From UHGV virus genome UHGV-0326656: 41,916 nt of DNA. One strand, given 5' to 3'. The position numbers and the translations under genes were made by a program. Positions 1-41,916 of the stretch are shown in pieces (the stretch's first letter is position 1; each line of letters begins with the position of its first letter). This DNA is from a virus. Under the pieces are notes generated by a model that was not told the origin of the DNA, searched no databases, and saw nothing but the letters and a program-made list of their open reading frames with translations.

Positions 1-150
1 CCTGGTAAAGCGGCGATTGGTCGTCTGAAAGGTGAGGAACTGGCGCAATATAATTTGTGGCTGGATTATCTGGACGCACTGGAACTGGTCGATACTTCCG
101 GTGCGCCAGATATTGAATGGCCTACTCCTCCGGCAGTTCAGGCCAGATGA
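1..150 (+). CDS. tail fibre assembly protein (Tfa), C-terminal part; 5' end lies outside the window
   Basis: Frame 1 is open to the TGA at 148-150; translation ...GRLKGEELAQYNLWLDYLDALELVDTSGAPDIEWPTPPAVQAR is nearly identical to the C-terminus of the 40731..41162 ORF. Confidence 0.8.
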   Translation, partial: PGKAAIGRLKGEELAQYNLWLDYLDALELVDTSGAPDIEWPTPPAVQAR

Positions 151-724
151 CATCCGGCGCGGTGCTGGTATCCGTTGCCGTCACCGCGTCAATGTAATCC
201 AGCACAGCGTTTAGTCGGGTGGTTTCTGTCTGCGTCAGCTTCCTCCCGGCCTGCAATTTCAGTTGAATCAGACTAATGGAAGCCATTGCAGTATCAATTA
301 GTGACTGTCGCTGTACTTCTGCCGCTTTTACTGCGGCACCATATTGTGCCTCAGTATCTGTCACCCATTTCTCACCATCCCATTTATCGTATGGCGTTAA
401 TGGGACGATAGTGGTTGTATTTTCAGGGTAATCACCCGGAGCTGTGATTTCTTTTGATTCTCCTGTTTCAGTGCTATAGACAAATTCACCACGATGGTCT
501 GGCACATATATCCACGAGTTAAAATCTTCAGAACGGCAAATTGCATAACCAGTTTTGTATGGGCCAGGGGCATCTAAACAGGAACATGCCGGAATGCCGA
601 CACCAATGGCAAGATATTCTGTTGATGTGGAAATATATTCCCGCGTTTCACCATCATAATTATAAACGGTTATGTCTCCCGCTTTTATGGCAATGAGTTC
701 GTTATTTAAGACAACTTTATTCAT
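122..724 (-). CDS. tail fibre assembly protein, inverted-orientation copy (Tfa')
   Basis: 200-aa ORF about 85% identical to the 41134..41736 ORF; convergent with the + strand Tfa, as in Mu G / e14 P invertible segments. Confidence 0.8.
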   Translation of the reverse strand: MNKVVLNNELIAIKAGDITVYNYDGETREYISTSTEYLAIGVGIPACSCLDAPGPYKTGYAICRSEDFNSWIYVPDHRGEFVYSTETGESKEITAPGDYPENTTTIVPLTPYDKWDGEKWVTDTEAQYGAAVKAAEVQRQSLIDTAMASISLIQLKLQAGRKLTQTETTRLNAVLDYIDAVTATDTSTAPDVIWPELPEE

Positions 725-1179
725 CAGGCAGCCCTCACGATATAATTAAAGGCAATGTTACGAGGTCGGTTTTCGTTTGCAGTTGGAACAACTCTGGAAG
801 CATCGAATGTTACTCGCTTTGCATAACCACCTTTAATTGAATCCGATGAAGCATCTCCGATGACGCTGGTTGTAAAAACGCCAGAATCAGAAGGATAGGT
901 ATTGAACCTGACATCCACTAATGCACCAATTATATTTCGAATGGCATCGCCCTGTGATGAAAGCAAGCTACGGTTAGTATCTATTCCTCTTCCGTCATCC
1001 CAGCCACGAATAAACTCACCACGTAAATCTGGCAATTTATTTGTCGGATAAACTTTTGCCAGTTCCGGATACTCTTCGGCAGAAAAAGGCGCACCATTGC
1101 ATTTCAGCCAGCCTGTTGGCGGAGTGGCTGAAGGCCACGGAACAGGCACACCAACGGGTAATGCCGAACCTTCTCCCAA
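724..1179 (-). CDS. alternative tail fibre C-terminal (receptor-binding) segment; no ATG of its own, opens inside the crossover site
   Basis: Frame opens with TTG inside the gix-like site; Gly/Pro-rich tip sequence ending NIAFNYIVRAA; stop overlaps the Tfa' start. Confidence 0.6.
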   Translation of the reverse strand: MGEGSALPVGVPVPWPSATPPTGWLKCNGAPFSAEEYPELAKVYPTNKLPDLRGEFIRGWDDGRGIDTNRSLLSSQGDAIRNIIGALVDVRFNTYPSDSGVFTTSVIGDASSDSIKGGYAKRVTFDASRVVPTANENRPRNIAFNYIVRAA

Positions 1180-2897: not shown

Positions 2898-3206
2898 GTG
2901 ACTCACATGACAAAAACAGTATCAACCAGTAAAAAACCCCGTAAACAGCATTCGTCTGAATTTCGCAGTGAAGCCCTGAAGCTTGCTGAACGCATCGGTG
3001 TTACTGCCGCAGCCCGTGAACTCAGCCTGTATGAATCACAGCTCTACAACTGGCGCAGTAAACAGCAAAATCAGCAGACGTCTTCTGAACGTGAACTGGA
3101 GATGTCTACCGAGATTGCACGTCTCAAACGCCAGCTGGCAGAACGGGATGAAGAGCTGGCTATCCTCCAAAAGGCCGCGACATACTTCGCGAAGCGCCTG
3201 AAATGA
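2898..3206 (+). CDS. insE: IS3 transposase OrfA (HTH subunit)
   Basis: [42 protein letters not shown]... recognised as IS3 OrfA. Confidence 0.9.
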
Positions 3207-4069
3207 AGTATGTCTTTATTGAAAAACATCAGGCTGAGTTCAGCATCAAAGCAATGTGCCGCGTGCTCCGGGTGGCCCGCAGCGGCTGGTATACGTGGTG
3301 TCAGCGGCGGACAAGGATAAGCACGCGTCAGCAGTTCCGCCAACACTGCGACAGCGTTGTCCTCGCGGCTTTTACCCGGTCAAAACAGCGTTACGGTGCC
3401 CCACGCCTGACGGATGAACTGCGTGCTCAGGGTTACCCCTTTAACGTAAAAACCGTGGCGGCAAGCCTGCGCCGTCAGGGACTGAGGGCAAAGGCCTCCC
3501 GGAAGTTCAGCCCGGTCAGCTACCGCGCACACGGCCTGCCTGTGTCAGAAAATCTGTTGGAGCAGGATTTTTACGCCAGTGGCCCGAACCAGAAGTGGGC
3601 AGGAGACATCACGTACTTACGTACAGATGAAGGCTGGCTGTATCTGGCAGTGGTCATTGACCTGTGGTCACGTGCCGTTATTGGCTGGTCAATGTCGCCA
3701 CGCATGACGGCGCAACTGGCCTGCGATGCCCTGCAGATGGCGCTGTGGCGGCGTAAGAGGCCCCGGAACGTTATCGTTCACACGGATCGTGGAGGCCAGT
3801 ACTGTTCAGCAGATTATCAGGCGCAACTGAAGCGGCATAATCTGCGTGGAAGTATGAGCGCAAAAGGTTGCTGCTACGATAATGCCTGCGTGGAAAGCTT
3901 CTTTCATTCGCTGAAAGTGGAATGTATCCATGGAGAACACTTTATCAGCCGGGAAATAATGCGGGCAACGGTGTTTAATTATATCGAATGTGATTACAAT
4001 CGGTGGCGGCGGCACAGTTGGTGTGGCGGCCTCAGTCCGGAACAATTTGAAAACCAGAACCTCGCTTAG
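3203..4069 (+). CDS. insF: IS3 transposase OrfB (DDE catalytic subunit)
   Basis: 288-aa ORF overlapping orfA, with integrase-core motifs (...[10 protein letters not shown]..., ...HTDRGGQY...). Confidence 0.9.
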
Positions 4070-6560: not shown

Positions 6561-7724
6561 TTACACATCATTAGTACCTTCCTTATTTTTTGACTGGGAC
6601 AAATTTGGGACCGATGGGTTCAGGATCGAGTCTATTTGCCGTGCGTGCTCGGTAAGGTGATTAGGTGCAAGGTGAGCATATCGACGAACCATTTCGATAG
6701 ACTCCCAGCCTCCCATTTCCTGTAACACTGACAACGGGACTCCGGCTTGAACCAGCCAACTTGCCCAGGTGTGTCTCAGGTCGTGAAATCTGAAATCATC
6801 AATACCAGCCCGTCTCAGCGCCGCTTTCCAGGCTGTGTTTGCGTCATACCGCATCTTCCTTACTGTTGGCGCTTTCGTTCCGTCTGGTTTGGTACAGCTT
6901 TCCTTGTACACAAATACCCAACGGTGATGATTCCCGATTTGTTTTTTCAAAACGCGACATGCAGTATCATTCAGCGCAACGCCGATTGCGCGGTTTGATT
7001 TACTCTCTTCCGGGTTTATCCATGCCACTCGGCGCTGCATATCTATTTGTTGCCATTCAAGGTTGATGATGTTCGAGCGTCTTAAGCCTGTTGCCAGTGC
7101 AAATTCAACAACAGACTTTAATGGCTCCGGACATTCATCAATCAGCCTTTGTGCTTCATGGGGCTCCAGCCAGCGGATCCGTTTATTCTTTGGTTGAGGC
7201 ACTTTAATAATTGGTGCCTTATCCAGCATTTTCCATTCACGCTCTGCGGCTCTTAGTAGGGCCTTTATAAATGAAAGATGCGTAGCCTTCGTTGCAACGG
7301 ACGCTGGTTTTGGCGTGTATTCTGGAACAGGTTTCCCTTTTTTTCTGCATGCTTCTGCCCTGAGTTTCCAGTTTTCCTCATGACGCCGGTTCGTCATTTT
7401 CTGCATTGCTGAATAAATTTTTGATTCAGTAATGTCTCTTAGTTGCATTCCTGCGAAATGTTGAAGCCAGAATCCGATCCGGCTTTTGTCATCGTCCAGT
7501 GATTTTTTATGTGCTTTCTCTTCAAGCCACCTGACACATGCTTCCTCGAACGTTATATCAGGTATTTCACCAAGTTTACTGACCCGCCATGCTTCAGCCT
7601 TTAGCTTGTCATGGAGTTCTGTCGCCTGCCTTTTGTCCTTTGTTCCAAGAGACTGTTTAAATCTTTTACCGTTCGGCAATGTGAAACTGGCGTACCATAT
7701 TTCACCTCTGCGGAAGAGTGACAT
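6561..7724 (-). CDS. int: tyrosine-type phage integrase
   Basis: 387 aa with C-terminal catalytic region ...[39 protein letters not shown]; adjacent to tRNA fragment. Confidence 0.95.
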
Positions 7725-18408: not shown

Positions 18409-19161
18409 ATGAACCTTGAAGCCTTACCGAAATATTACTCCCCGAAATCTCCAAAACTGAGCGATGACGCACCGGCGACAGGCTCTGGTGGTTTAACGAT
18501 TACGGATGTGATGGCTGCGCAGGGGATGGTGCAGTCGAAAGCACCGCTTGGGTTTGCCTTATTCCTGGCAAAAGTTGGTGTTCAGGATCCTCAGTTTGCG
18601 ATTGAAGGTCTGCTCAATTACGCGATGGCACTGGATAACCCGACATTGAATAAATTGAGTGAAGAAACCCGGCTACAGATCATTCCTTACCTTGTGAATT
18701 TTGCCTTTGCTGATTATTCCAGGTCTGCGGCAAGTAAGGCTCGCTGTGAGCATTGTGCTGGTACTGGATTTCATAATGTATTGCGCGAAGTGGTGAAACA
18801 CTCCAGAAGCGGGGAGTCTGTTATCAAGGAAGAGTGGGTGAAGGAACTATGTCAGCATTGTCATGGTAAGGGAGAAGTCAGCACAGCGTGCAGAGGGTGT
18901 AAGGGTAAAGGTATTGTCCTGGATGAAAAAAGAACCCGGCTTCATGGTACGCCTGTTTATAAGATTTGTGGGCGTTGCAATGGAAAACGGTTTAGTCGTT
19001 TACCAACCACACTGGCGCGGCATCATGTCCAGAAACTGGTACCAGACCTGACGGATTATCAGTGGTACAAAGGATATGCAGATGTCATTGATAAACTGGT
19101 TACAAAGTGCTGGCAGGAGGAATCTTACGCTGAAGCACAATTGAGAAAGGTGACAAGATAA
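18409..19161 (+). CDS. late-gene antitermination protein Q
   Basis: 250 aa, MNLEALPKYYSPKSPKLSDDAPATG... with Cys-rich zinc-binding C-terminus; immediately upstream of the late region. Confidence 0.8.
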   Translation: MNLEALPKYYSPKSPKLSDDAPATGSGGLTITDVMAAQGMVQSKAPLGFALFLAKVGVQDPQFAIEGLLNYAMALDNPTLNKLSEETRLQIIPYLVNFAFADYSRSAASKARCEHCAGTGFHNVLREVVKHSRSGESVIKEEWVKELCQHCHGKGEVSTACRGCKGKGIVLDEKRTRLHGTPVYKICGRCNGKRFSRLPTTLARHHVQKLVPDLTDYQWYKGYADVIDKLVTKCWQEESYAEAQLRKVTR

Positions 19162-19363: not shown

Positions 19364-20149
19364 ATGTATGTTTTTGAGTTAATCAAGCCAGGCAGTAATC
19401 TTAAGTTTGAAAACAGAGAGTTAGAATGGACGTTTAATAACTTATTATCCCATTTAGAAACTGCATTTTATGATGCTAATGTAGCATTAAATTTATTCGA
19501 ACAGGAAAGAACTAAGAATAACAGTAAATTCGATAATATTTCTCAGACATGGCAAGCTGATGTACAGAAACGACAAGCACTGGAAATGCTGGTTCGTAAA
19601 GAGTTTGGTTATCAACCTTATGAATATTCAGAACAGGTTTTTTCAGAGGTCGAGCTACGTCTAAAAAGAGAAAAATGGAATAACGGTGAATATCCGTTGG
19701 CTCATCAACACAGATTGATCTTCTTACATGCAAAATCATTTCTCTACGCTTTGGATGCTATTGATAAATTTTTAAAGGTAATTTCAAAAGAAAATGGCGC
19801 GCCAGAGAACATTAAAAAATTGCATGAACAGCTTTCTAAAGACTTTCCGGATTTAAGAAAGGTAAGGAATTCAGCTCAACACATGGAAGACAGAGTTCGT
19901 GGGCTTGGTGCAGAGAAAGAACCAAAGCCAATAAAACTCAAACCTGTAAATAATATTCATGTTGTTGCACCTCAGGGGGCATTGATGTTGAATAACTTAT
20001 TCGGAACTAAATTTGGGTGCACTATGGCTGATGGCTATTATGGTGAAGTAGATATTTCGACAGAGTCTTTGGCAAAGTTGCAAAATTTAATCCAAAAAGT
20101 TTTTAATTCCTTCAGTTGGGAAGGACCAAAGCAACACCTTCCCCGATAA
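19364..20149 (+). CDS. hypothetical protein, 261 aa, AT-rich moron with an Rx4H (HEPN-like) motif
   Basis: Lies between Q and the holin; motif RNSAQH; followed by its own terminator. Confidence 0.6.
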   Translation: MYVFELIKPGSNLKFENRELEWTFNNLLSHLETAFYDANVALNLFEQERTKNNSKFDNISQTWQADVQKRQALEMLVRKEFGYQPYEYSEQVFSEVELRLKREKWNNGEYPLAHQHRLIFLHAKSFLYALDAIDKFLKVISKENGAPENIKKLHEQLSKDFPDLRKVRNSAQHMEDRVRGLGAEKEPKPIKLKPVNNIHVVAPQGALMLNNLFGTKFGCTMADGYYGEVDISTESLAKLQNLIQKVFNSFSWEGPKQHLPR

Positions 20150-20568: not shown

Positions 20569-21045
20569 ATGCAGGTACTAAATTCCCAGCGTAAAGCTTT
20601 CCTTGATATGGTGGCTTGGTCAGAAGGAACGGATAACGGACGACAACCGACACGTAACCACGGTTATGACGTTATTGTCGGTGGTGAACTCTTCACTGAT
20701 TACTCCGATCACCCTCGCAAACTTGTCACGCTAAACCCGAAACTCAAGTCAACAGCCGCCGGACGTTACCAGCTTCTTTCACGCTGGTGGGATGCTTACC
20801 GTAAACAGCTTGGCCTGAAAGATTTTTCTCCAGAAAGCCAGGACGCTGTAGCTCTGCAGCAGATTAAAGAGCGTGGCGCTTTACCGATGATTGACCGCGG
20901 CAATATTCGTCAGGCAATCGACCGTTGCAGCAATATCTGGGCGTCGTTACCAGGTGCAGGTTACGGTCAGTATGAACATAAAATCGGCGACCTGATTGCC
21001 CGATTTAAAGAGGCTGGTGGGGTAGTAAATGAAGCTGAGATATAA
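20569..21045 (+). CDS. endolysin, lambda R-type lytic transglycosylase
   Basis: MQVLNSQRKAFLDMVAWSEGTDNGRQPTRNHGYDVIVGGELFTDYSDHPRKLVTLNPKLKSTAAGRYQLLSRWWDAYRKQLGL... closely matches lambda R. Confidence 0.95.
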   Translation: MQVLNSQRKAFLDMVAWSEGTDNGRQPTRNHGYDVIVGGELFTDYSDHPRKLVTLNPKLKSTAAGRYQLLSRWWDAYRKQLGLKDFSPESQDAVALQQIKERGALPMIDRGNIRQAIDRCSNIWASLPGAGYGQYEHKIGDLIARFKEAGGVVNEAEI

Positions 21046-21421
21046 GCTGGTTATTGTTGCCTTCTTTGTTACCGTCATTGGTTCCTTCATCTGGTCTGTC
21101 GGGCATTACTACAGCAAATATCAGCACGAAAAGGAGCGTGCTGATGAGGCTGTACGAAATGCTGAATCGGCAACTGCCATTACCAATAACGTCCTGCAAT
21201 CAATACAAATCGTAAATACAGCACTGGAGGCTAGCCAGCATGCAAAACAACAAATCGCACTGGAGTCACAGAGAACCCAGGAAGATATCAAAGTGGCTGT
21301 TGCGAATGATGATTGCGCTTCACGTCCTGTGCCTGCTGCCGCTACTGACCGGTTGCGGAAGTACGCGGACAGTTTACGTGAGCACCCCAGTAGCACCACT
21401 GTCAACCACCCTAACTTCTGA
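21029..21421 (+). CDS. Rz-like inner-membrane spanin
   Basis: N-terminal transmembrane helix (LVIVAFFVTVIGSFIW) then coiled-coil region; overlaps the endolysin stop. Confidence 0.75.
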   Translation: MKLRYKLVIVAFFVTVIGSFIWSVGHYYSKYQHEKERADEAVRNAESATAITNNVLQSIQIVNTALEASQHAKQQIALESQRTQEDIKVAVANDDCASRPVPAAATDRLRKYADSLREHPSSTTVNHPNF

Positions 21422-21554
21422 AACACCGATTCCAATTATACCTAGTCCACTGACATATGGTGCTAGCCTAGACCTGAATGCAAGTTTGTTATCTGCATTA
21501 GGGCAGTGCAATAGAGATAAAAAGGCTATCCGCAGTATAAACAATGCTAGATGA
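21306..21554 (+). CDS. Rz1-like outer-membrane lipoprotein spanin
   Basis: MMIALHVLCLLPLLTGCGS lipobox followed by Pro-rich sequence; +1 frame inside Rz and running past its end. Confidence 0.65.
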   Translation: MMIALHVLCLLPLLTGCGSTRTVYVSTPVAPLSTTLTSETPIPIIPSPLTYGASLDLNASLLSALGQCNRDKKAIRSINNAR

Positions 21555-21632
21555 AGATTTTAATTTAAATTGAAGATGCCTATTACTAGACATCTTTATA
21601 ATTTATGCTCAAACCAAAGTGGATTTGTAATA

Positions 21633-22007
21633 TTAAAGACTATTTAGGAGACTCTGAATAATAGGCCATAAAGTTAATGTGTTTGCACCAGCTGAGTAAA
21701 ATCGCTCCATCAGTTGTAGAGGTGTTGATGACTGATTAAACTTGATATCATTTAAAATGTCGTATATTTCTTGTAGCTTCTCTGCACCAAGTTTATCGTT
21801 AATTTCACTTAAGTTATTTTGTATGGCGATTTCTGCTTCTTTTATAAGCCGAACTGTTTCTGCTGAGTAATGAATATTGTTGGAAAGAAAAGTATTAGCT
21901 GAATCAATAATTTCATAACCAACATCAGCACCAAATGATTTGTTTCCAATTATTTTGATGTTTTCGCATCCCTCAATGCGATAAGCAACGGTTTTCTTTT
22001 CACTCAT
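21633..22007 (-). CDS. hypothetical protein, 124 aa, AT-rich reverse-strand moron
   Basis: Minus-strand ORF between Rz1 and HNH, the slot lambda uses for bor; AT-rich flanks; no signal peptide or recognisable family. Confidence 0.55.
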   Translation of the reverse strand: MSEKKTVAYRIEGCENIKIIGNKSFGADVGYEIIDSANTFLSNNIHYSAETVRLIKEAEIAIQNNLSEINDKLGAEKLQEIYDILNDIKFNQSSTPLQLMERFYSAGANTLTLWPIIQSLLNSL

Positions 22008-22134
22008 GTTATAACCTGTGTTTAGTTACTTTTATTAGAACCTTGTTATCAGATTTTTCTCATAAAGGAAAGAGTGAAAGAGAAAAATGAATCTCTTTTG
22101 TCAAATATGTCTATCAGATTAAAGAGAGTATTTT

Positions 22135-22485
22135 ATGCCAGCACTGATACCTAGAGCCTGCCGTGTTCGCGGCTGCCACCATACCACTACTGACCCGTCA
22201 GGCTATTGTGAAAGCCATAAAAGCGAAGGCTGGAAGCAATACAAGCCAGGCCAGTCCCGTCATCAGCGCGGCTACGGTTCGAAGTGGGACAGTATCCGCG
22301 CGCGCGTCCTGAAGCGTGACAAAGGTTTATGTCAGTTATGTCTGCGTGCCGGTGTGGTGCGTGAAGCTAAAACCGTTGACCACATCATCCCTAAAGCGCA
22401 TGGCGGCACCGATGCAGACAGTAATCTGCAGAGCCTGTGCTGGCCGTGCCATAAGACGAAGACGGCCCGTGAACGGCTAAAGTGA
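22135..22485 (+). CDS. HNH endonuclease (terminase-associated)
   Basis: Cys-rich N-terminus and ...VDHIIPKAHGGTDADSNLQSLCWPCH... HNH motif; directly upstream of terminase genes. Confidence 0.9.
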   Translation: MPALIPRACRVRGCHHTTTDPSGYCESHKSEGWKQYKPGQSRHQRGYGSKWDSIRARVLKRDKGLCQLCLRAGVVREAKTVDHIIPKAHGGTDADSNLQSLCWPCHKTKTARERLK

Positions 22486-22512
22486 TAATAATTCTCAACT
22501 GCCTGAGGGGAG

Positions 22513-22572
22513 GGGCGGGTCAAATCCCTGTGGCCTGACGTCTTCCGGACTGCCCGCCCCATCGTTTTTTTA
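22513..22572 (+). other. GC-rich inverted repeat plus T-run between HNH and terminase small subunit; candidate cos region or terminator
   Basis: GGGGCGGG ... CCCGCCCC (8-bp stem, about 32-nt loop) followed by ATCG and TTTTTTT. Confidence 0.35.
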
Positions 22573-40730: not shown

Positions 40731-41162
40731 ATGGAAAAGACATATTATTTTAATCCCTCTGATTCGGGATTTTATATTTCACCAGATAGCCAAACCATTC
40801 CTGAGAACGCTACGAAAATAAACTTTACTATTTATTCTGAGTTCGCAGGAGTTGCATGGCCTGATGGTAAAATACTTGGTTCAGATAAAAATGGTTTTCC
40901 AGCATGGCAGGATGCGCCACCACTTACCAGCGAAGAATTAATCTCAATCGCTGAATCAAATAAACAGCGATTAGTTAATCAGGCCAACGAATACATGAAC
41001 AGTAAACAATGGCCTGGTAAAGCGGCGATTGGTCGTCTGAAAGGTGAGGAACTGGCGCAATATAATTTGTGGCTGGATTATCTGGACGCACTGGAACTGG
41101 TCGATACTTCCAGTGCGCCAGATATTGAATGGCCTACGCCTCCGGCAGTTCAGGCCAGATGA
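40731..41162 (+). CDS. tail fibre assembly protein (Tfa)
   Basis: 143 aa immediately after the fibre gene; C-terminal 50 aa shared with the inverted copy. Confidence 0.85.
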   Translation: MEKTYYFNPSDSGFYISPDSQTIPENATKINFTIYSEFAGVAWPDGKILGSDKNGFPAWQDAPPLTSEELISIAESNKQRLVNQANEYMNSKQWPGKAAIGRLKGEELAQYNLWLDYLDALELVDTSSAPDIEWPTPPAVQAR

Positions 41163-41736
41163 CATCCGGCGCGGTGCTGGTATCTGTTGCCGTCACCGCG
41201 TCAATGTAATCCAGCACAGCGTTAAGTCTGGTTGTTTCTGCCTGCGTCGGTTTACGTCCGGCCTGCAATTTCAGTTGAATCAGACTGATGGAAGCCATTG
41301 CTGCATCAATCAGTGACTGGCGCTGTGCTTCTGCCGCTTCTACTGCGGCACCGTATTGTGCCTCAGTATCTGTCACCCATTTTTCACCATCCCATTTATC
41401 GTATGGCGTTAACGGGGCGATAGTGGTTGTATTTTCGGGATAGTCGCCTAGTGCTGTGATTTCTTTGGCATCTCCCGTTTCGGTGTTATAGACTATTTCA
41501 CCTCGATGGTCTGACACATATTCCCATGATTTTAAATCCACAGAACGGAAAATTGTATAACCAGCCTTATATGTACCAGGAGCGTCTAAACAGGAATATG
41601 CAGGGATACCGACACCAATGGCAAGATATTCATTTGAAGTGGAAATATATTCCCGTGTTTCGCCATCATAGTTATAGACGGTAATATTTCCCGCCTTTGT
41701 AGCAATAAACTCGCTATTTAATACAGCGTTATCCAT
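41134..41736 (-). CDS. tail fibre assembly protein, inverted-orientation copy (Tfa')
   Basis: 200 aa, convergent with Tfa; about 85% identical to the 122..724 ORF. Confidence 0.85.
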   Translation of the reverse strand: MDNAVLNSEFIATKAGNITVYNYDGETREYISTSNEYLAIGVGIPAYSCLDAPGTYKAGYTIFRSVDLKSWEYVSDHRGEIVYNTETGDAKEITALGDYPENTTTIAPLTPYDKWDGEKWVTDTEAQYGAAVEAAEAQRQSLIDAAMASISLIQLKLQAGRKPTQAETTRLNAVLDYIDAVTATDTSTAPDVIWPELPEA

Positions 41737-41737
41737 T

Positions 41738-41916
41738 ATGCAGCCCTCACGATATAGTTAAATGCAATATTCCGTGGGCGAGTATCGGCAGGAACGACAT
41801 ACATTTCACCAATTGCCCGCTCATTAGAGTTGTTCAGCAATAGGCTTGAGCCATTACTGTCATGACCCGTAATTAAGATATCATTGGACAAAATAAGTGA
41901 GCCCGTACCTGCAGGA
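41738..41916 (-). CDS. alternative tail fibre C-terminal segment, partial (runs off the window)
   Basis: Minus-strand frame ...NDILITGHDSNGSSLLLNNSNERAIGEMYVVPADTRPRNIAFNYIVRAA with stop overlapping the Tfa' start; same terminal motif as the 724..1179 ORF. Confidence 0.7.

What the first reader, a model, noticed from the sequence alone, without database searches (positions are those of the whole stretch)
21555..22134. Reverse-strand moron after the spanin genes
A 124-aa AT-rich gene on the opposite strand sits between Rz1 and HNH, flanked by AT-rich intergenic DNA and a hairpin (AAGATG...CATCTT) at its 3' side. This is the position and orientation of lambda bor, but the product has no lipoprotein signal and no recognisable family.
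Basis: inference. Interest (0 to 1): 0.5.

Follow-up and report, generated by a model that had tools for sequence, protein, structure and literature searches.

The report
Orphan reverse-strand prophage cargo gene
A small, AT-rich gene of unknown function sits backwards between the lysis and DNA-packaging genes of an E. coli prophage; it is a real, conserved, swappable accessory gene ("moron") in a known cargo slot, and what its protein does is still unknown.

Summary
ORF 21633-22007 (-) encodes a 124-aa protein. The segment 21555-22134 has 31% GC against 49% and 55% in the flanks. A 10-bp hairpin (21573-21596) follows the stop codon.

The segment is a swappable cassette. Homology to related prophages stops at about 21522-21530 and resumes at the HNH start codon. 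Related elements carry other cargo there, including the bor homologue iss on the reverse strand. Phage SfIV has only a 291-bp spacer with no annotated gene.

The gene is real: relatives show dN/dS of 0.25, homologues reach down to about 27% identity, and the AlphaFold2 model has pLDDT 90. The small family was found only in Enterobacterales (named records and metagenome contigs). In all 15 distinct loci examined it lies after the lysis cassette, antisense to the late operon.

The protein is soluble and acidic, with no signal peptide. The model shows two 22-residue beta-helix rungs followed by a helical bundle. Nothing matches in Pfam, NCBIfam, PHROGs, PADLOC, PDB or BFVD. It is not a homologue of Bor/Iss or Tai.

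The closest functional analogy is phi80 taiEcA, a lysogen-expressed defence gene in the same slot and orientation. An inter-phage conflict role is only inferred. The promoter is unresolved. This is a new member of a known kind, of modest interest.

The parts
21633..22007 (-). Coding sequence of a 124-aa soluble, acidic protein (13.9 kDa, pI 4.8). Residues 7-50 form two 22-residue beta-helix-like rungs. Residues 49-123 form a helical bundle. A family-conserved loop motif, S-x-G-A-N-x-L-T-x-W-P, lies at residues 105-115.
   Evidence: ORF. RefSeq CDS WP_021570658.1. Purifying selection: dN/dS 0.245 between two relatives; window versus relatives pN 0.18 and pS 0.75. Homologues down to about 27% identity. 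AlphaFold2 pLDDT 89.9 and pTM 0.75. Conserved motif.
21573..21596 (-). Stem-loop 37 nt after the stop codon, in the 78-nt spacer between the convergent lysC and the cargo gene. It is the candidate transcription stop for the cargo gene.
   Evidence: 10-bp stem, -13.3 kcal/mol on the - strand against -8.8 on the + strand. Homologous cassettes carry unrelated hairpins at the same place. No T-run, so terminator activity is inferred.
22043..22072 (-). Conserved non-coding block CTTTCCTTTATGAGAAAAATCTGATAACAA, 36-65 nt upstream of the ATG. It is a candidate promoter, operator or 5'-UTR element.
   Evidence: 27 of 30 positions are identical to the 70%-identical cassettes, whose synonymous sites are saturated. 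In IMG/VR the core 20-mer occurs only in the six contigs that carry the gene. It occurs nowhere else in the window.
22008..22134 (-). AT-rich (27% GC) divergent spacer between the cargo gene and HNH. It contains an AGG Shine-Dalgarno-like triplet (22015-22017), two copies of AATCTGATA (22047-22055 and 22112-22120) and a perfect TTGACA with no matching -10 element.
   Evidence: Consensus scans found no sigma-70 promoter of at least 9/12 here.
21522..22134 (.). Extent of the swappable cassette. The left breakpoint lies in the last codons of lysC. The right breakpoint is at the HNH start codon.
   Evidence: blastn against five related prophages. Most E. coli matches start at query 735/736/756, which is window 22134/22135/22155.

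Best explanation
The segment is a self-contained accessory cassette (a moron) at the junction between the lysis and packaging modules of a lambdoid-type E. coli prophage with SfII/SfIV-like late genes. It encodes one real, conserved, cytoplasmic 124-aa protein from a previously unannotated family found only in Enterobacterales.

Shown: the gene is under purifying selection, it is optional for the phage, it is exchangeable with unrelated cargo, and in every locus examined it lies antisense to the late operon directly after the lysis genes.

Inferred, regulation: the gene is transcribed from its own AT-rich upstream region in the lysogen, and the transcript ends at the hairpin before lysC. During lytic growth, Q-antiterminated late transcription crosses it head-on and lowers its expression. 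This is the 'noncontiguous operon' arrangement reported for taiEcA of phage phi80.

Inferred, function (about 0.35): the protein benefits the lysogen in phage-phage conflict. It would bind a protein of an incoming phage through its mini beta-helix and helical-bundle surface, giving superinfection interference or defence. It does not act on the cell envelope as Bor/Iss does.
For: Real gene: dN/dS 0.245. Family of about 20 diverged sequences of 122-145 aa with an invariant Pro115 and the motif SxGANxLTxWP. Confident fold, pLDDT 89.9.

Cassette: sharp homology breakpoints. Alternative cargo in the same slot: a 169-aa protein, two reverse-strand hypotheticals, a GrlR-family protein, DUF2441 and iss. 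A spacer with no annotated gene in SfIV. GC 0.31 against 0.49/0.55. Present in 15 of 5426 genomes.

Position and orientation: same place and strand in E. coli, Salmonella, Citrobacter, Atlantibacter, Pantoea and IMG/VR loci, despite three different lysis cassettes and at least three packaging modules.

Own signals: the hairpin is stronger on the gene strand. The upstream block is conserved and gene-specific.

Precedent: phi80 taiEcA is a reverse-strand defence gene upstream of the packaging module. It is expressed in the lysogen and reduced when Q is expressed (PMC11364771).

Cytoplasmic and soluble: no signal peptide or transmembrane segment, pI 4.8.
Against: No promoter could be identified by consensus, and there is no expression data. 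The hairpin lacks a T-run.

No sequence or fold similarity to any known defence protein. PADLOC finds nothing, although PADLOC also gives validated TaiEcA only a faint HEPN-model match, E 0.004. There is no homology to Tai.

The family was seen only in this one prophage slot, never in satellites or defence islands. Tai, by contrast, also occurs in satellites and other hotspots. Known cargo of the slot is functionally mixed (Iss, GrlR-like, Rha, Tai), so location alone gives a weak prior for defence.
Confidence: 0.6

Rival explanations
1. It is a lytic-cycle accessory factor tied to lysis or to the lysis-packaging transition, for example a modulator of lysis timing or of late transcription. This would explain why the family always sits at the 3' end of a lysis cassette.
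For: All examined homologue lineages lie 15-300 bp beyond the last lysis gene, whatever lies on the other side. In L022 the stop codon is only 15 bp from Rz.
Against: It is on the opposite strand to the late operon, so it is not co-transcribed with the lysis genes. It is absent from most relatives with the same spanin and HNH genes, and from infectious phage SfIV. It is replaced by unrelated cargo such as iss. The protein is cytoplasmic and acidic, whereas holins and spanins act in the envelope.
Confidence: 0.12
2. It is a host-fitness or virulence conversion factor that acts on the bacterium itself, for example a cytoplasmic regulator or adaptor. In role it would resemble other cargo of this slot, such as Iss/Bor or GrlR-like proteins.
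For: The same slot carries iss and a GrlR-family regulator in related prophages. The carriers are gut, poultry and other animal E. coli isolates.
Against: No signal peptide or lipobox, so it is not Bor-like. No DNA-binding or enzymatic motif. No association with any pathotype is evident among the 15 genomes.
Confidence: 0.15
3. The antisense transcript is the functional product, and the protein is secondary. Transcription opposing the late operon would dampen leaky read-through from the lysis genes into the packaging genes, or the reverse, in the lysogen (an excludon-like role).
For: Convergent arrangement with the lysis cassette in every locus. Q expression reduces TaiEcA in the analogous phi80 layout, which shows the two transcription units interact. 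The non-coding upstream block is conserved.
Against: Strong protein-level constraint: pN 0.18 against saturated pS, dN/dS 0.245, and relatives at about 27% identity that keep length, motif and predicted fold. A hairpin lies before lysC. The slot has no annotated gene in SfIV.
Confidence: 0.06
4. It is a chance ORF, or a decayed fragment of a larger beta-helix protein such as a tailspike, and has no function.
For: Sub-threshold NosD/beta-helix Pfam hit (15.3 bits against a cut-off of 23.6). Only two rungs, which would be unusual for a stand-alone beta-helix.
Against: An ORF of this length is improbable at this composition (3.5e-5). Full-length homologues have the same size and both domains. No larger protein contains the sequence among 1.84 billion representatives; the only long hits are repeat noise. 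dN/dS is below 1.
Confidence: 0.03

Closest known systems
Lambda bor / E. coli iss (lysogenic-conversion lipoprotein gene downstream of Rz/Rz1, reverse strand)
   Same: Same slot and same orientation. A related prophage with the same HNH-terminase module carries iss exactly there. Both are small, optional, single-gene cargo.
   Different: No signal peptide, lipobox or Lambda_Bor Pfam match. The protein is predicted cytoplasmic and has a different fold.
taiEcA (orf63) of phage phi80, the Tai tail-assembly-interference defence (PMC11364771)
   Same: A reverse-strand gene that interrupts the Q-dependent late operon between the lysis genes and the packaging module. It is a single-gene cargo described as a moron. 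The paper showed expression in the lysogen and a reduction when Q is expressed.
   Different: No homology: BLASTP E 5.3 and hhalign probability 0.1%. TaiEcA is 204 aa. Tai homologues also occur in PICIs and P4-like satellites, whereas this family was seen only in the prophage slot. No adjacent counter-defence gene is evident here.
Morons as defined for HK97/HK022 (extra gene with its own promoter and terminator and deviant composition; from my own knowledge of Juhala et al. 2000). HK97 gp15 is an example of a superinfection-exclusion moron (cited in PMC11364771).
   Same: Deviant GC, precise insertion between genes that lie close together in a relative (SfIV), a 3' hairpin, and optional presence.
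   Different: The promoter is not identified and expression is not shown.
Right-handed parallel beta-helix (PbH1 / NosD / pectin-lyase-like) proteins
   Different: Only two rungs, fused to a helical bundle. All scores are below family thresholds. No catalytic or carbohydrate-binding signature.

Membership tests
Moron (independent accessory transcription unit in a phage genome) | An extra gene lying between genes that are adjacent or nearly adjacent in related phages | tested here: met
   SfIV has only a 291-bp spacer between the o-spanin and HNH, with no annotated gene and no ORF longer than 43 aa lying inside it. Five related prophages carry different cargo between the same flanks.
Moron (independent accessory transcription unit in a phage genome) | Base composition different from the surrounding phage genes | tested here: met
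   GC 0.307 against 0.486 (lysis cassette) and 0.552 (HNH-TerL).
Moron (independent accessory transcription unit in a phage genome) | Own terminator | tested here: inconclusive
   Significant hairpin 37 nt after the stop codon (-13.3 kcal/mol, z -5.9), with analogous hairpins in homologous cassettes. There is no T-run, and the consensus scan did not call it.
Moron (independent accessory transcription unit in a phage genome) | Own promoter | tested here: inconclusive
   No sigma-70 match of at least 9/12 in 22008-22134. A gene-specific conserved 30-nt block lies upstream.
Moron (independent accessory transcription unit in a phage genome) | Expressed from the prophage in the lysogen | not testable with these tools
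   Needs RNA-seq, 5'-RACE or a reporter fusion.
Bor/Iss lipoprotein family | Signal peptide with a lipobox cysteine, and the Lambda_Bor domain | tested here: not met
   No Pfam match. The N-terminus MSEKKTVAYRIEG is hydrophilic and the maximum KD(19) is 0.86. The only Cys (C14) is in the context EGCEN.
Bor/Iss lipoprotein family | Location downstream of Rz/Rz1 on the opposite strand | tested here: met
   iss occupies the same slot in L019.
Tai (tail assembly inhibition) defence proteins | Sequence homology to TaiEcA (phi80 orf63) | tested here: not met
   BLASTP E 5.3. hhalign of the family profile against TaiEcA gives probability 0.1%.
Tai (tail assembly inhibition) defence proteins | Reverse-strand gene upstream of the packaging module, interrupting the late operon | tested here: met
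   compared with PMC11364771.
Tai (tail assembly inhibition) defence proteins | Blocks tail assembly of incoming lambdoid phages | not testable with these tools
   Needs plating assays and electron microscopy.
Parallel beta-helix (PbH1/NosD) repeat proteins | Significant match to a beta-helix repeat profile | tested here: not met
   NosD at 15.3 bits against a gathering score of 23.6. Only 1 of 13 family members hits it.
Parallel beta-helix (PbH1/NosD) repeat proteins | Stacked three-strand rungs of about 22 residues | tested here: inconclusive

The most novel reading that the evidence does not exclude
The 124-aa protein founds a new single-gene prophage immunity or interference family. It would have a fold not previously seen: a two-rung mini beta-helix capped by a helical bundle, with an invariant GAN-LT-WP loop. 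The lysogen would express it antisense to the late operon, and it would disable a protein of incoming phages. It would be position-locked to the end of lysis cassettes across Enterobacterales lambdoid prophages.
Probability: 0.3. Interest if true: 0.55.

Novelty: new member of a known kind. Interest (0 to 1): 0.33.

Why it matters
The lysis-packaging junction of lambdoid prophages is a recognised cargo slot that has already yielded Bor/Iss (serum resistance) and Tai (anti-phage defence). This cassette adds a conserved, unannotated protein family with a confidently predicted fold that matches nothing in the PDB or BFVD. It is therefore a cheap candidate for a phage-challenge screen.

If it proves to be a defence or exclusion factor, it would add one more small single-protein system, plus a second natural example of the antisense 'noncontiguous operon' control seen in phi80. 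If it proves inert, nothing about current models changes.

Tried and rejected
- **Family scans.** Pfam, NCBIfam, PHROGs and PADLOC, run on the protein; Pfam and PHROGs also on all 13 family members. Only sub-threshold, inconsistent hits.
- **Profile against PDB sequences.** Nothing below E 0.06.
- **Tai homology.** Rejected. The 261-aa and 169-aa neighbouring cargo proteins also gave no BLASTP similarity to TaiEcA.
- **Two-gene system with the 261-aa AT-rich gene upstream of the holin.** Rejected. 22 genomes have that allele, 15 have the 124-aa gene, and only 7 have both.
- **Conserved same-strand partner.** Rejected. Distant homologues have different upstream genes (a HEAT-repeat 68-aa protein, a 148-aa protein, a 172-aa protein), and the E. 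coli cassette has none.
- **RNA element in the spacers.** Only chance-level Rfam hits.
- **Regulation by a site shared with the rest of the prophage.** The upstream motifs occur nowhere else in the window.
- **Portable promoter.** The 20-mer occurs only in contigs that carry the gene.
- **Sequenced phage isolates.** tblastn against 50,697 GenBank phage records found no homologue.
- **GTDB representative genomes.** The scan found none. The first attempts, with too diverse an alignment, failed.
- **Promoter prediction.** Hexamer matching is inconclusive. The best candidates differ between homologous cassettes.

Full report
**1. The observation**

The ORF exists as described: 21633..22007 on the - strand, 124 codons, ATG start. 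RefSeq annotates the same ORF as a hypothetical protein in an identical E. coli prophage (WP_021570658.1).

The ORF lies between an Rz1-like LysC o-spanin (ending at 21554; Pfam LysC, 2.4e-14) and an HNH endonuclease (22135-22485; Pfam HNH, 5.4e-16). The HNH gene is followed by a P27-type small terminase and a large terminase.

Composition:

| Segment | GC |
|---|---|
| ORF 21633-22007 | 0.333 |
| 3' spacer 21555-21632 | 0.244 |
| 5' spacer 22008-22134 | 0.268 |
| Whole finding 21555-22134 | 0.307 |
| Lysis cassette | 0.486 |
| HNH to TerL | 0.552 |

In DNA this AT-rich, a 124-codon open frame is unlikely by chance: 3.5e-5 analytically, and 2 of 2000 shuffles reach that length.

- On the gene's own strand it folds at -13.3 kcal/mol (z = -5.9).
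- On the + strand it folds at only -8.8 kcal/mol, because a U.G pair becomes a C.A mismatch.
- It has no T-run, so the consensus terminator scan did not call it.

**2. It is a real gene**

Homologues exist but are few.
- A word-indexed search of 5.8 billion proteins found 7.
- An exhaustive phmmer scan of 1.84 billion representatives found 14 hits. Nine are true full-length relatives of 122-145 aa, with 29-56% identity.
- A profile search added Citrobacter, Atlantibacter and Pantoea members.
- All named sources are Enterobacterales.

Two relatives that are about 70% identical to the window protein give dN/dS = 0.245 against each other. Against the window gene, synonymous sites are saturated (pS 0.75) while pN is 0.18.

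The family keeps its length. Pro115 is invariant, and the motif S-x-G-A-N-x-L-T-x-W-P is nearly invariant.

With a 13-sequence alignment, AlphaFold2 gives a confident model (pLDDT 89.9, pTM 0.75).
- Residues 7-47 form two stacked rungs of three short strands with a 22-residue period. The two rungs share 6 of 22 residues.
- Residues 49-123 form a bundle of five helices.

The protein is acidic (pI 4.8), has no hydrophobic segment and has no lipobox.

**3. It is a swappable cassette in a cargo slot**

The full 901-bp query around the gene is present in only 15 of 5426 complete E. coli genomes. At least part of the query, mostly the HNH gene, is present in 753. Most of the other matches start exactly at the HNH start codon (window 22134/22135).

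Direct comparison with five related prophages puts the left breakpoint at 21522-21530, in the last codons of lysC.

The same flanks enclose different cargo in different genomes:

| Locus | Cargo between the same flanks |
|---|---|
| L002 | 169-aa forward-strand protein |
| L016 | Two reverse-strand hypotheticals |
| L017 | GrlR-family protein |
| L018 | DUF2441 protein |
| L019 | iss, the bor homologue, on the reverse strand |
| SfIV (isolated phage) | 291-bp spacer, no annotated gene and no ORF longer than 43 aa inside it |

The gene is therefore optional for the phage.

**4. The family is position-locked**

I examined 15 distinct loci from 11 diverged lineages.
- They span E. coli, Salmonella, Citrobacter, Atlantibacter, Pantoea, metagenome contigs and IMG/VR contigs.
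- In every one, the gene lies just beyond the last lysis gene and on the opposite strand.
- This holds although the lysis cassettes differ: lambda-S holin with GH24, holin_3_7/holin_8 with GH19, and holin_2 with Phage_lysozyme.
- The genes on the other side also differ: HNH with P27-type terminase, lambda-type Nu1/GpA, a Terminase_2 fragment, and others.

None was in a satellite or a defence island. I have no firm explanation for this constancy. It could reflect exchange by flanking recombination, or a requirement for this position.

Distant members have a same-strand upstream gene, but it is a different one each time. There is therefore no conserved partner. The 261-aa AT-rich gene upstream of the holin in the window assorts independently.

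**5. Signals**

Homologous cassettes carry unrelated but equally placed hairpins after the stop codon. This supports a transcript-end function.

Upstream, a 30-nt block (window 22043-22072, - strand) is 27/30 identical between cassettes whose synonymous sites are saturated.
- In IMG/VR its core 20-mer occurs only in the six contigs that carry the gene.
- It occurs nowhere else in the window.

No sigma-70 consensus promoter could be assigned, and the best hexamer pairs differ between cassettes. The promoter remains unproven. Rfam gives only chance-level hits.

**6. What the protein is not**

- No family in Pfam, NCBIfam, PHROGs or PADLOC matches, either for the protein or consistently across the family.
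- Nothing turns up in PDB sequences.
- No homologue occurs in 50,697 GenBank phage records.

**7. How it most likely works**

The nearest functional precedent is taiEcA (orf63) of phi80.
- It is a reverse-strand gene between the lysis genes and the packaging module.
- It interrupts the Q-dependent late operon.
- It is expressed in the lysogen, and its level falls when Q is expressed.
- It blocks tail assembly of incoming lambdoid phages (PMC11364771).

The window protein is not a Tai homologue (BLASTP E 5.3; hhalign probability 0.1%), but the architecture is the same.

I therefore propose the following, as inference.
- The gene is transcribed from its own upstream region in the lysogen.
- The transcript ends at the hairpin.
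- Head-on late transcription lowers its expression during lytic growth.
- The product is a cytoplasmic binding protein used in conflict with other phages.

I give the cassette and moron part high confidence, and the defence function about 0.35. PADLOC silence carries little weight, because validated TaiEcA gets only a faint match there (E 0.004). HepS of Gifsy-1 is another recent single-protein prophage defence that senses a structural protein (PMC13043305).

The rivals are a lysis-linked accessory role, a host-directed conversion factor, an antisense-RNA role and a spurious ORF. They are weighed in the rival section of this report, and none is favoured by the data.

**8. Verdict**

This is a new member of a known kind: a moron in the lysis-packaging cargo slot. 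It encodes an unannotated, narrowly distributed protein family with a fold that matches nothing searched. Interest is modest until a phenotype is found.

Noticed in passing
window 19364-20149 (+): A second AT-rich cargo gene (261 aa, GC 0.36) lies between the antiterminator Q (18409-19161) and the holin. It matches phrog_5322 (unknown function) and nothing in Pfam or PADLOC. It contains V-R-N-S-A-Q-H, an Rx4H motif reminiscent of HEPN nucleases (from memory, not tested). Diverged homologues of 261 and 264 aa sit in the same slot of L004 and L003. It assorts independently of the 124-aa gene (22 and 15 genomes, 7 shared).
   Followed up: partly
window 1-756 and 41013-41768: The two ends of the window are 88.8% identical over 756 bp. 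Each carries a 200-aa tail-fibre assembly gene on the - strand (122-724 and 41134-41736; proteins 85% identical). An IS3-type transposase (2898-4069) lies between the left copy and the integrase (6561-7724). This suggests a neighbouring prophage remnant or an alternative tail-fibre segment.
   Followed up: partly
window 22510-22572 (+): A GGGGCGGG...CCCGCCCC stem followed by T7 lies between HNH and the small terminase. It looks like a terminator inside the late operon, or it may relate to the cos region. Its fold energy is not better than shuffles (z = -0.16).
   Followed up: partly
window 22047-22055 and 22112-22120 (- strand): AATCTGATA occurs twice, 65 bp apart, in the divergent spacer between the cargo gene and HNH, and nowhere else in the 41.9-kb window (expected 0.32; 7 of 100 shuffles give at least 2). 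One copy lies inside the conserved upstream block. It could be a regulator site.
   Followed up: partly
L038 9309-9599 (+): This prophage carries a 31%-identical homologue of the 124-aa protein. In its Q-holin slot it also has a 96-aa ORF with beta-helix-like N-rich repeats. The ORF aligns weakly to the family profile (hhalign probability 22%, E 1e-3). It may be a distant paralogue in the other cargo slot, or chance.
   Followed up: partly
L008 6774-6980 (+), L013 6449-6895 (+), L011 6391-6909 (+): Distant homologues of the 124-aa gene are the last gene of short reverse-strand units. The upstream genes differ: a 68-aa HEAT-repeat protein in Citrobacter (Pfam HEAT, 8e-9), a 148-aa protein in Pantoea (hydrophobic N-terminus by eye) and a 172-aa protein in Atlantibacter.
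   Followed up: partly
window 21240-21554 and 21029-21421 (+): The o-spanin (LysC/Rz1-like) frame overlaps the 3' part of the DUF2570 i-spanin gene and extends 133 nt beyond it. This is an overlapped rather than embedded spanin pair. The cassette's left recombination breakpoint (about 21522-21530) lies inside the last codons of this o-spanin, so the C-terminal residues of LysC change with the cargo.
   Followed up: no
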